Assembly: GCF_030013205.1 (NCBI RefSeq)
Contig: NZ_CP122648.1
Source of the DNA: Escherichia coli
GTDB taxonomy: Bacteria > Pseudomonadota > Gammaproteobacteria > Enterobacterales > Enterobacteriaceae
Strand: one strand, 5' to 3'
DNA length: 64,000 nucleotides
Shown here: one piece after another, positions 18,875-19,110 of the stretch
Layout of the letters: every line of letters starts with the position of its first letter
Numbering within the stretch: position 1 is the stretch's first letter
Position numbers and translations under genes: made by a program
The notes under the pieces: model-generated
Databases searched by the model: none
What the model saw: the letters and a program-made list of their open reading frames with translations, nothing else
What the model was told of the DNA's origin: nothing

Positions 18875-18914
18875 GAAAACATACGGGCGATGACAAAGTT
18901 AAAAAAAGCGCTCG

Positions 18915-19030
18915 GATAGTCCCCTCGCCCCTCCGGGGAGAGGGTTAGGGGGAGGGGAACAGACCAGCACTGGCGCGATTATTTACCCTCACCCCGACCC
19001 TCTCCCTAAAAGGGCGAGGGGGAAAACCGT
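18915..19030. repeat. GC-rich imperfect inverted repeat, probably a known enterobacterial intergenic repeat
   Basis: TCCCCTCGCCCCTCCGGGGAGAGGGTTAGGGGGAGGGG mirrored by CCCTCACCCCGACCCTCTCCCTAAAAGGGCGAGGGGGA in the yggL-yggN intergenic region. Confidence 0.4.
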
Positions 19031-19110
19031 GCCCCTTTTGACTTTTAAGCCAGTTTGTTATCAATCTGGGGTCAGCAAATGCTGGCCTGATTTGTTCTTG
19101 AGGGAAGACT

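What the first reader, a model, noticed from the sequence alone, without database searches (positions are those of the whole stretch)
18915..19030. GC-rich inverted-repeat element between yggL and yggN
Two ~40-bp GC-rich units (CCCCTCGCCCCTCCGGGGAGAGGG... and its imperfect inverse) stand out in an otherwise AT-rich intergenic region. This resembles the dispersed enterobacterial intergenic repeats (boxC-like), but I cannot assign the family with confidence.
Basis: seen in the sequence. Interest (0 to 1): 0.25.

Follow-up and report, generated by a model that had tools for sequence, protein, structure and literature searches.

The report
BoxC repeat pair replacing REP elements
This is an inverted pair of BoxC repeats, a long-known family of GC-rich E. 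coli intergenic repeats, sitting just after yggL in about 1% of strains where nearly all others carry REP repeats. The element is ordinary, but the locus shows one repeat family swapped for another.

Summary

- **Identity:** both units (18921-18957 on +, 18986-19022 on -) match the published BoxC/PIT/TMECO consensus exactly; no shuffle of the window does. A single unit occurs at a median of 18 places per E. coli genome. The pair has the family's usual layout: type A plus type B, with a 27-28-nt spacer.
- **Repeat unit:** it is longer than reported, about 179 bp (18889-19067), and aligns end to end with the K-12 gcvP-ygfF composite at 86-87% identity.
- **Alleles at this site:** other genera have an empty site, with the stop codon followed directly by a conserved terminator hairpin. 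Escherichia species carry a REP pair. Only 54 of 5426 E. coli genomes carry the full BoxC pair, and 10 carry a 76-bp slippage-deletion derivative.
- **The swap:** it is confined to 18898-19053. Both alleles keep the same end motifs, GATGACAAA and TTTGTTATCAATCT.
- **Shared motif:** the left motif also flanks an independent REP pair and other BoxC copies.
- **Not found:** no donor copy, no covariation, no Rfam match, and no promoter or terminator signal in the element.

Most likely it is a structured, non-coding, selfish or neutral repeat in the yggL 3'UTR, acquired by recombination within shared end motifs. It is a known family, and interest is low to moderate.

The parts
18889..19067 (.). Whole composite repeat: end motifs, inner flanks, two BoxC units and the spacer.
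   Evidence: It aligns end to end (179 nt) with the K-12 gcvP-ygfF composite, at 86-87% identity by BLAST. It is absent from the empty site in other genera.
18889..18897 (+). Left external motif GATGACAAA, the left half of a terminal inverted repeat with 19054-19062.
   Evidence: It is present in both the BoxC and the REP alleles. It is found at the left edge of several other BoxC type-A copies and at an independent REP pair downstream of fdnI.
18898..18920 (+). Type-A inner left flank (GTTAAAAAAAGCGCTCGGATAGT).
   Evidence: It is conserved among type-A copies, with the pattern ..AAAAA.GCGCTCGGACAGTC.
18921..18957 (+). BoxC/TMECO unit A, type A with the G/A mismatch ('A mm'). Blocks are 18921-18931 (C-rich), 18935-18944 and 18948-18957 (G-rich); loops are TCC and TTA.
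   Evidence: It matches the consensus exactly and is nearly identical to K-12 Table 1 no. 23. The window lineage has a private T>G change at 18951 in block 3.
18958..18985 (.). Conserved inter-unit spacer (AACAGACCAGCACTGGCGCGATTATTTA).
   Evidence: It aligns with the spacers of the K-12 pairs at gcvP-ygfF, alx-sstT and fepB-entC. The gap is 27-28 nt, as in the K-12 pairs.
18986..19022 (-). BoxC/TMECO unit B, a type-B variant with second loop TCG. On the + strand its blocks are 18986-18995, 18998-19006 and 19012-19022.
   Evidence: It matches the consensus exactly on the - strand. The TCG loop also occurs in K-12 copies nos. 12 and 20.
19023..19053 (.). Type-B inner flank (GAAAACCGTGCCCCTTTTGACTTTTAAGCCAG).
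   Evidence: The GAAAAC.GTGC part is shared by type-B copies. The rest is specific to this locus: only the 64 carrier genomes match at 95% or better, and the next best is 81% at gcvP-ygfF.
19054..19067 (+). Right external motif TTTGTTATCAATCT. TTTGTTATC is the inverted partner of GATGACAAA.
   Evidence: It is identical in the BoxC and REP alleles and matches 13 of 14 positions in the gcvP-ygfF composite. It is absent from the empty site.
18903..19039 (.). Long imperfect palindrome that folds as one hairpin on either strand.
   Evidence: Arms are 57 nt and 74% complementary. The RNA fold is -90.7 kcal/mol with z = -5.7, and the ssDNA fold is -44.6 kcal/mol with z = -5.1.
18922..18997 (.). The 76-bp segment lost in the collapsed allele, bounded by the direct repeats GTC|CCCTC and GAC|CCCTC.
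   Evidence: Ten genomes carry a 475-bp locus. The two I read show this exact deletion, which leaves the hairpin CCCTCTCCC-TAAAA-GGGCGAGGG.
19069..19099 (+). Context, not part of the repeat: the conserved terminator-like hairpin plus T-rich tract of yggL. All insertions sit immediately 5' of it.
   Evidence: The scan calls the stem at 19069-19088 with the tail GATTTGTTCT. It is conserved in 50 distinct enterobacterial sequences, and 2 of its 8 pairs show compensatory changes. The window lineage has a private C>T change at 19072 in the stem.

Best explanation
The feature is a composite BoxC element, also published as a PIT or TMECO inverted pair.

**Shown**
- It consists of two roughly 36-nt G/C-rich units in inverted orientation. 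Each unit has one homopyrimidine block and two homopurine blocks.
- The units sit in a repeated scaffold of about 179 bp whose ends, GATGACAAA and TTTGTTATC, are inverted repeats of each other.
- It encodes nothing.
- It lies in the 3' untranslated region of yggL, between the stop codon and a conserved terminator hairpin.
- That site is empty in other genera. It holds a REP pair in all five Escherichia species representatives sampled and in about 99% of E. coli genomes.
- The element is unstable. A 76-bp deletion between its internal CCCTC direct repeats is present in 10 genomes.

**Inferred**
- The allele arose when the resident REP pair was replaced by recombination or templated repair, with a BoxC composite from elsewhere as donor. 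The crossovers fell in the short end motifs that the two element types share.
- The element has no dedicated host function and behaves as a selfish or neutral structured repeat.
- At the DNA level it makes an extrusion-prone palindrome and a slippage site. According to the literature, single-stranded copies of such units can fold into an intrastrand triplex in vitro.
- At the RNA level it adds a very stable hairpin to the trmB-yggL transcript ahead of the terminator, much as the REP pair does in other strains.
For: **Identity**
- The consensus matches exactly twice, against 0 in shuffles.
- Copies are dispersed at a median of 18 places per genome.
- The type A plus type B pairing, the spacer and the flanks are shared with K-12 pairs.

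**Site history**
- Non-Escherichia genera have a spacer of roughly 50 bp: stop codon, hairpin, ribosome-binding site. Four Escherichia representatives have the 182-183-bp REP allele and a fifth has a variant REP-type allele.
- In E. coli, 54 genomes have the full pair, 10 have the collapsed form, and the rest have the REP allele.

**Tight swap**
- Differences from K-12 are confined to 18898-19053, while the flanks show ordinary 1-2% divergence.

**Shared ends**
- GATGACAAA and TTTGTTATCAATCT are present in both alleles and in the gcvP-ygfF composite.
- The non-REP flanks of the REP allele resemble BoxC flanks from other loci: p = 0.0008 and 0.0002 against gcvP-ygfF, while the spacers are unrelated at p = 0.4-0.8.
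- An independent REP pair at fdnI shares ACTGATGACAAA with the BoxC copies at gntP-fimH and alx-sstT (p <= 0.0002).

**Instability**
- The deletion allele has its breakpoints in direct repeats. This matches the 'palindrome effect' described in PMC4666352.

**Structure**
- RNA folds at -90.7 kcal/mol with z = -5.7, and ssDNA folds with z = -5.1.

**No dedicated function**
- About 99% of E. coli lack the element and other genera have nothing at the site.
- No promoter-like or terminator-like site is called inside the element.
- PMC4666352 reports that PIT elements had no promoter or terminator activity in an earlier study, and that no triplex was detected in dsDNA or in vivo.
Against: - No donor copy was found. 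The nearest relative of the element-specific right flank outside the carriers is 81% identical. The carrier strain lacks the gcvP-side composite altogether. Phage, plasmid and metagenome searches gave no alternative genomic context.
- The shared end motifs are only 9 and 14 nt long, which is short for RecA-dependent recombination.
- The right-end motif did not generalise to the independent REP pair (p = 0.12-0.8).
- Nothing here measures expression, so an RNA-level role cannot be excluded. The same site has attracted hairpin-forming repeats in several lineages, which fits either a permissive site or a selected one.
- The stems are nearly invariant, so covariation says nothing either way.
Confidence: 0.7

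Rival explanations
1. It is a functional 3'UTR RNA element. When transcribed with trmB-yggL, the composite forms a long hairpin that does the same job as a REP pair: it blocks 3'-to-5' exonucleases, is cut by RNase III, or attenuates read-through into yggN. That role would explain why a strongly structured repeat is kept at this position.
For: - The RNA fold is very stable and non-random (-90.7 kcal/mol, z = -5.7).
- The element lies between the stop codon and a conserved terminator, so it is probably transcribed.
- Both E. coli alleles place a palindromic pair at the same spot.
- ERIC-type hairpin repeats occupy the same site in Kluyvera and Pluralibacter.
- REP/BIME elements are reported to act as mRNA stabilisers and attenuators (references cited in PMC2267715).
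Against: - Most genera have no element there at all.
- The collapsed allele, which has lost most of the hairpin, persists in isolates from different hosts.
- None of the 33 predicted pairs shows a compensatory change.
- PIT elements showed no terminator or promoter activity and no effect on RNA polymerase in the earlier study summarised in PMC4666352.
Confidence: 0.2
2. It is a DNA triplex (H-DNA-like) element whose role is to create local genome instability. During replication or transcription each unit folds into an intrastrand purine-motif triplex that stalls forks and provokes rearrangement. This is the adaptive 'variation generator' speculated on by Holder et al.
For: - Near-identical oligonucleotides form stable intrastrand triplexes in vitro, and TMECO loci are more variable than control loci (PMC4666352).
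- This locus has three alleles in E. coli.
- GC skew is positive across the window. By the usual rule, the + strand is then the lagging-strand template, and it carries unit A in the Py-Pu-Pu orientation. This step is inference.
Against: - The same paper found no triplex signal in duplex DNA and no protection in in vivo DMS footprinting.
- The observed deletion is explained by direct repeats plus a palindrome, without invoking a triplex.
- Variability at repeat-bearing sites is also expected for any mobile or recombining repeat.
- The REP-bearing allele is just as much a replacement.
Confidence: 0.1
3. It is a miniature inverted-repeat transposable element. The 179-bp composite, with its GATRACAAA terminal inverted repeats, is moved in trans by a transposase and inserted here directly.
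For: - The ends look like terminal inverted repeats.
- Composites with the same scaffold occur at gcvP-ygfF, at yijF-gldA and at this locus.
- The end motifs are absent from the empty site, so they arrived with an inserted element.
Against: - No target-site duplication is evident when the filled and empty sites are compared.
- The copies are 13% or more diverged and none is near-identical, so there is no sign of recent transposition.
- The end motifs were already present in the older REP allele, so the event here was a replacement, not an insertion.
- Hits on phages are essentially absent, and plasmid hits are mostly chromosome-sized records or megaplasmids.
- No partner transposase is known. 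That last point rests on my own knowledge.
Confidence: 0.08
4. The polarity is reversed. A BoxC composite was the original Escherichia insert at this site, the REP pair replaced its core early, and the 1% allele is a surviving or re-imported ancestral form.
For: - The REP allele keeps flank motifs typical of BoxC composites.
- The window composite is 13-14% diverged from its closest paralogue, which suggests age.
- Carriers differ from one another by up to 6 SNPs in 241 nt.
Against: - E. albertii, E. whittamii and two unnamed Escherichia species all carry REP-type alleles. The BoxC form would therefore have had to persist as a polymorphism across species splits.
- The GATGACAAA motif also flanks an independent REP pair, so it need not be a BoxC relic.
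- The left flank of the REP allele is closer to the gcvP-ygfF copy than to the BoxC allele at its own locus.
Confidence: 0.1

Closest known systems
BoxC repeats of E. coli, also published as PIT (potential intrastrand triplex) elements and TMECO motifs (Holder et al. 2015, PMC4666352; listed as BoxC in PMC2267715)
   Same: - Both units match the consensus exactly.
- The location is intergenic and the family has about 20 dispersed copies per genome.
- It is an inverted pair made of a type-A (TTA loop) and a type-B unit, with the conserved 27-28-nt spacer.
- Its deletion derivative is of the 'palindrome effect' type.
   Different: - This copy sits at a locus that has no BoxC in K-12 and is present in only about 1% of E. 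coli genomes.
- Unit B has a TCG loop rather than the CCG that defines type B. Two K-12 copies share this variant.
- Unit A in the window lineage has G instead of T at the variable position of block 3.
- I find the repeated unit to be about 179 bp with shared end motifs, which is longer than the 34-37-nt motif or the 50-56-bp BoxC described.
REP / PU elements and their mosaics (BIMEs)
   Same: - Both are short palindromic intergenic repeats in inverted pairs and occupy the same site in the other allele.
- The left external motif (ACT)GATGACAAA is shared, and at this locus the right motif TTTGTTATCAATCT as well.
- Two solitary K-12 BoxC copies directly abut REPs.
   Different: - The window element contains no REP unit.
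- The units are three-block homopurine/homopyrimidine motifs, not the REP palindrome.
- There are about 20 copies per genome, against several hundred REPs (PMC2267715).
- No RAYT-type transposase link is known for BoxC. This rests on my own knowledge.
ERIC / IRU elements
   Same: Both are structured intergenic repeats of about 127 bp that fold as one long hairpin. ERIC-type copies occupy this very site, 5' of the yggL terminator, in Kluyvera sichuanensis and in a Pluralibacter MAG.
   Different: There is no sequence similarity: 12-13 of 22 matches to the ERIC primer cores, against 19-20 of 22 for true copies.

Membership tests
BoxC / PIT / TMECO | Matches the consensus 5'-CCCTCNCCC-N3-6-GGGNGAGGG-N3-GGGNGAGGG-3' | tested here: met
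   Two exact matches, at 18922-18956 (+) and 18986-19020 (-), against 0 in 100 shuffles. The consensus is taken from PMC4666352.
BoxC / PIT / TMECO | Dispersed in many copies per E. coli genome and always intergenic | tested here: met
   The 48-nt unit is found in 5425 of 5426 genomes at a median of 18 places each. This copy lies between yggL and yggN.
BoxC / PIT / TMECO | Inverted pairs combine a type-A unit (second loop TTA) with a type-B unit (second loop CCG or a variant) | tested here: met
   Unit A has TTA. Unit B has TCG, the variant also seen in K-12 nos. 12 and 20. The spacer is homologous to the spacers of K-12 pairs.
BoxC / PIT / TMECO | Sequence homology to established copies, including fabI(envM)-ycjD (from memory, the founding locus) | tested here: met
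   Unit A differs at 2 of 35 positions from the fabI-ycjD copy, and its flanks are shared with several K-12 copies. There is also an 81-nt alignment to the gntP-fimH copy, 91.4% identical by BLAST.
BoxC / PIT / TMECO | The single strand folds into an intrastrand purine-motif triplex in vitro | not testable with these tools
   ViennaRNA models only Watson-Crick and wobble pairs, and single units give z of about -1.4. Triplex formation was shown by CD and NMR for near-identical type 'A mm' oligonucleotides in PMC4666352.
REP / BIME | Contains at least one REP (PU) palindromic unit | tested here: not met
   The window element has no REP-like unit, although my pattern was strict. Its core does not align with the REP allele. 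The K-12 allele at the same site does contain two REPs.
REP / BIME | Conserved non-REP external motifs flank the units (mosaic organisation) | tested here: inconclusive
   The left motif (ACT)GATGACAAA is shared with REP pairs at yggL-yggN and at fdnI. The right motif is shared only at this locus, with p = 0.12-0.8 against fdnI. Genome-wide junction searches were swamped by REP-only hits.
ERIC / IRU | Contains the conserved ERIC core. I tested this with the ERIC1R and ERIC2 primer sequences, recalled from memory. | tested here: not met
   Best matches are 12 of 22 and 13 of 22 in the element. The repeats at the same site in L069 and L052 score 19-20 of 22.
MITE (miniature inverted-repeat transposable element) | Terminal inverted repeats plus a target-site duplication, with near-identical recently moved copies | tested here: not met
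   TIR-like ends are present. No target-site duplication is evident against the empty site, and no copy above 90% identity exists outside this locus.
Intrinsic terminator | A G+C-rich hairpin immediately followed by a U tract | tested here: not met
   The scan calls no terminator inside the element. It calls only the conserved hairpin downstream at 19069-19088.
Any curated RNA family (Rfam 15) | Reaches the family's gathering score | tested here: not met
   The best hits are generic miRNA-hairpin models at 28 bits or less, against gathering scores of 58-150.
RSA repeat of E. coli | Homology to the roughly 152-bp RSA consensus | not tested
   No RSA consensus or coordinates were available to me. 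The exact BoxC match makes this assignment unnecessary.

The most novel reading that the evidence does not exclude
BoxC pairs are not a separate family from BIMEs. In this reading they are alternative 'cargo' in the same mosaic scaffold.

- The external motifs, (ACT)GATGACAAA on one side and TTTGTTAKCAATCT on the other, can enclose either a REP pair or a BoxC pair.
- The two cargoes are exchanged by recombination within those motifs.
- The yggL-yggN locus would capture such an exchange as a live polymorphism: REP in about 99% of genomes, BoxC in 1%, and a collapsed form in 0.2%.

If true, BoxC spread would be tied to the machinery and dynamics of REP/BIME elements.
Probability: 0.3. Interest if true: 0.45.

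Novelty: new member of a known kind. Interest (0 to 1): 0.25.

Why it matters
The family has been known since the 1990s, so the element itself is not news. The locus is useful for three reasons.

- **A natural allelic series.** The same position holds an empty site, a REP pair, a BoxC pair or a collapsed BoxC hairpin, always 5' of a conserved terminator. That makes a clean system for asking what, if anything, these repeats do to mRNA ends and stability, and how fast palindromic BoxC pairs decay.
- **A sequence link between families.** The end motifs shared by the REP and BoxC alleles, and by an independent REP pair, suggest that BoxC and BIME elements are related. That would give a handle on how BoxC copies spread, which is unexplained.
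- **An insertion hotspot.** REP, BoxC and ERIC-type repeats have all landed at this one site in different lineages.

Tried and rejected
- **Rfam.** A permissive search of the region and a gathering-threshold search of related loci found nothing real.
- **Promoter and terminator scan.** Nothing was called inside the element.
- **Import from a divergent lineage.** SNP density against K-12 is ordinary right up to the element, so there is no sign of a large imported block. The high counts beyond about 22 kb in that profile arise mostly because the K-12 sequence I fetched ends there.
- **Donor search.**
  - No E. coli genome outside the carriers has the element-specific right flank above 81% identity.
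  - The carrier strain lacks ygfF and the gcvP-side composite.
  - The phage collection gave three irrelevant partial hits.
  - Plasmid hits are mainly chromosome-sized records or megaplasmids.
  - The metagenome scan returned five contigs, all at the same locus.
- **Covariation across nine composites.** None of the 33 pairs shows a compensatory change, so this is uninformative.
- **Single-unit folding.** The z-score is only about -1.4. The Watson-Crick energy of one unit is not what makes it non-random.
- **My REP regular expression.** It was too strict, finding only two REPs in 126 kb, so it cannot be used as a census.
- **Supplement of PMC4666352.** It has no mention of yggL or yggN, but the held files are truncated and the gene table covers only MG1655.
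- **Literature search.** A search for BoxC together with BIME and ERIC found nothing further in the held library.

Full report
**What is there**

The window is E. coli, with mutY, trmB, yggL (stop codon 18872-18874), yggN (start 19111) and ansB.
- The two GC-rich units are inverted copies of one another. The repeat finder reports 57-nt arms, 74% complementary and 23 nt apart.
- GC reaches 0.60-0.73 in the element, against 0.40-0.45 in the neighbouring non-coding sequence.

**Family assignment**

A literature search led to Holder et al. 2015 (PMC4666352). That paper treats BoxC, the 'PIT elements' of Maher's group and its own 'TMECO' motif as one and the same repeat. It gives the consensus CCCTCNCCC-N3-6-GGGNGAGGG-N3-GGGNGAGGG and lists the 23 copies in K-12.
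- The consensus matches exactly twice in the window, at 18922-18956 (+) and 18986-19020 (-), and in none of 100 shuffles.
- A 48-nt unit is found in 5425 of 5426 complete E. coli genomes, at a median of 18 places per genome.
- Unit A is type 'A mm' (second loop TTA, with a G/A mismatch in the hairpin). It differs by one base from K-12 copy no. 23.
- Unit B has second loop TCG, as in K-12 copies nos. 12 and 20.
- The paper notes that all five K-12 inverted pairs combine a type A with a type B unit. This pair does the same, and its gap equals that of the gcvP-ygfF and alx-sstT pairs.
- An independent survey also lists BoxC as a known E. coli family: 56 bp and 32 copies in the older literature, and a 50-nt model with 22 copies in that study (PMC2267715).
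- The element is not ERIC and contains no REP unit.
- It reaches no Rfam gathering score.

**The repeat unit is larger than reported**

Alignment with the K-12 pairs shows homology through the spacer and into both flanks.
- The window element aligns over 179 nt (18889-19067) with the gcvP-ygfF composite, at 86-87% identity by BLAST.
- A further relative lies between yijF and gldA in another strain.
- Across all 23 K-12 units plus the two here, type-A units share a left flank of about 32 nt that often begins GATGACAAA. Type-B units share gcaccgTTTTCy.
- The extreme ends, GATGACAAA and TTTGTTATC, are inverted repeats of each other.

**History of the site**

I fetched yggL loci from 80 species.
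- Outside Escherichia the yggL-yggN spacer is typically about 50 bp: the stop codon, a hairpin with a T-rich tract, and the yggN ribosome-binding site.
- That hairpin is conserved in 50 distinct sequences, and 2 of its 8 pairs show compensatory changes. The scan also calls it terminator-like in the window, at 19069-19088.
- The E. coli representative, E. albertii, E. whittamii and Escherichia sp. E1V33 carry an insert of about 134 bp with two REP units immediately 5' of the hairpin. K-12 has the same allele. A fifth Escherichia species, MOD1-EC7003, has a variant REP-type allele.
- Among 5426 complete E. coli genomes, 54 carry the full BoxC pair at 97.5-100% identity. Seventeen of these are identical swine ETEC or O139:H1 strains, and the rest are assorted human, dog and environmental isolates.
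- Ten genomes carry a shorter derivative.
- Essentially all other genomes carry the REP allele, with a 498-bp locus against 551 bp here.
- The REP allele is therefore the older state in the genus, and the BoxC allele is rare and probably derived.

**The swap is tight and uses shared ends**

- Against K-12, differences are confined to 18898-19053, and the flanking genes show ordinary 1-2% divergence.
- Both alleles keep GATGACAAA on the left and TTTGTTATCAATCT on the right.
- Neither motif exists in the empty site, so both motifs belong to the inserted elements rather than to the target.
- In shuffle tests, the non-REP flanks of the REP allele resemble BoxC-composite flanks from other loci. Against gcvP-ygfF, p = 0.0008 (left) and 0.0002 (right). 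Against alx-sstT, p = 0.004 and 0.017. The inter-unit spacers are unrelated, with p = 0.4-0.8.
- An independent REP pair downstream of fdnI has the same build. Its left motif ACTGATGACAAA matches the BoxC copies at gntP-fimH (12 of 12) and alx-sstT (11 of 11), with p <= 0.0002.
- The right flank of the fdnI pair does not match BoxC flanks significantly.
- Two solitary K-12 BoxC copies sit directly next to REPs.
- My inference is that BoxC composites and at least one BIME subtype share external motifs, and that the allele here arose by recombination or templated repair within them.

**No donor was found**

- No E. coli genome outside the carriers has the element-specific right flank above 81% identity.
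- The carrier strain K_EC180, which is identical to the window where I compared the two, lacks ygfF and the gcvP-side composite.
- Phage, plasmid and metagenome searches gave no other genomic context.
- One metagenome contig (L109) joins a gcvP-type left half to the yggL-yggN right half. It starts inside the repeat, so it may be an assembly chimera.

**Instability**

The short allele is a clean 76-bp deletion (18922-18997) between the direct repeats GTC|CCCTC and GAC|CCCTC. It leaves the simple hairpin CCCTCTCCC-TAAAA-GGGCGAGGG. This is the 'palindrome effect' that Holder et al. describe for inverted pairs and attribute to replication slippage. Carriers also differ from one another by up to 6 SNPs in 241 nt. 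The window lineage has two private changes: T>G at 18951 in block 3 of unit A, and C>T at 19072 in the terminator stem.

**How it probably works**

*Shown*
- The composite folds on either strand into one long hairpin: RNA -90.7 kcal/mol with z = -5.7, and ssDNA -44.6 kcal/mol with z = -5.1.
- It lies upstream of the conserved terminator. By inference it is transcribed as part of the yggL 3'UTR.

*From the literature*
- Near-identical single strands form intrastrand purine-motif triplexes in vitro.
- Duplex DNA shows no triplex, and in vivo DMS footprinting gave no support for one.
- An earlier study found no promoter or terminator activity (PMC4666352).

*Inferred*
- The element is a selfish or neutral structured repeat with no dedicated host function.
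- Its practical effects are a slippage-prone palindrome in the DNA and a REP-like hairpin in the mRNA.
- GC skew is positive across the window. By the usual rule, the + strand is the lagging-strand template, and it carries unit A in the Py-Pu-Pu orientation.
- The nine composites show no covariation, with 0 of 33 pairs compensatory. Conservation therefore cannot separate an RNA-level constraint from a DNA-level one.

**Verdict**

The family is well known, so interest is low to moderate. The points worth keeping are:
- the rare REP-to-BoxC cassette swap at identical boundaries;
- the end motif shared between the two repeat families;
- the slippage derivative;
- the repeated colonisation of this one site by REP, BoxC and ERIC-type repeats in different lineages.

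Noticed in passing
window 19069-19099: A conserved terminator-like hairpin and T-rich tract lie between the repeat and the yggN ribosome-binding site, with compensatory base changes across genera. The window lineage weakens it in two ways: C>T at 19072 makes a G-U pair, and the T run is interrupted (GATTTGTTCTT against GATTTTTTCTT in K-12).
   Followed up: partly
L069 about 1827-2000 (Kluyvera sichuanensis); L052 about 1827-2125 (Pluralibacter MAG): The same site, between the yggL stop codon and the terminator hairpin, holds one ERIC-type element in Kluyvera and two tandem ERIC-type elements in Pluralibacter (19-20 of 22 matches to the ERIC primer cores). Three repeat families have therefore colonised this one site in different lineages.
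   Followed up: partly
L106 25756-25918 (K_EC180, gcvP-bglA spacer): The carrier strain lacks ygfF and the BoxC composite that follows gcvP in K-12. The spacer instead holds a degenerate REP-like sequence (AAAGTGCGCTTTGTGTGTCGGATGAAGCG). About 3200 of 5426 genomes have the gcvP-ygfF composite, so that locus is also polymorphic.
   Followed up: partly
L109 1-230 (metagenome contig OHMF01004212.1): This is a hybrid composite upstream of yggN. The left half is of gcvP-ygfF type (TGCTCAGACAGTC..TTT..GGCCGGCACTGGCGCGAATAT) and the right half of yggL-yggN type. The contig begins inside the repeat, so the hybrid is either an assembly chimera or a real ectopic conversion.
   Followed up: no
L087 288-415 (K-12 fimH-gntP); L098 291-322 (K-12 frlR-yhfS): Two solitary K-12 BoxC units are followed within about 25-40 nt by a REP element, so BoxC-REP mosaics exist in K-12.
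   Followed up: partly
L112 45-215 (plasmid pECTOK-001_1, downstream of fdnI): A REP pair with the same external motifs as the yggL-yggN REP allele (ACTGATGACAAAcGCAAcAtT ... TGaAcAAaGCcTACgTTGTcTAcAATaTG) lies on a 219-kb plasmid that carries chromosomal-type genes (fdnI, higA).
   Followed up: partly
L009 about 1827-1960 (Escherichia sp. MOD1-EC7003): This species has a variant REP-type allele. The left end and first REP are the same, but the spacer, the second REP and the right side differ. I did not read far enough to see its right end.
   Followed up: no
hits H39-H41 and H317 (REP-allele strains, e.g. ST131): Some RefSeq annotations place a 'hypothetical protein' inside the REP-bearing yggL-yggN spacer. 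It is probably a spurious ORF call over the repeats.
   Followed up: no
(plasmid and phage collections): - Two Campylobacter phage records and a 2.5-kb 'Escherichia phage' record contain a 58-nt BoxC-like match at 89.7% identity, possibly contaminating E. coli DNA.
- The plasmid collection includes chromosome-sized E. coli records.
- Weak hits at about 70-77% identity occur in Sinorhizobium, Rhizobium and Azospirillum replicons and may be analogous GC-rich three-block motifs.
   Followed up: no
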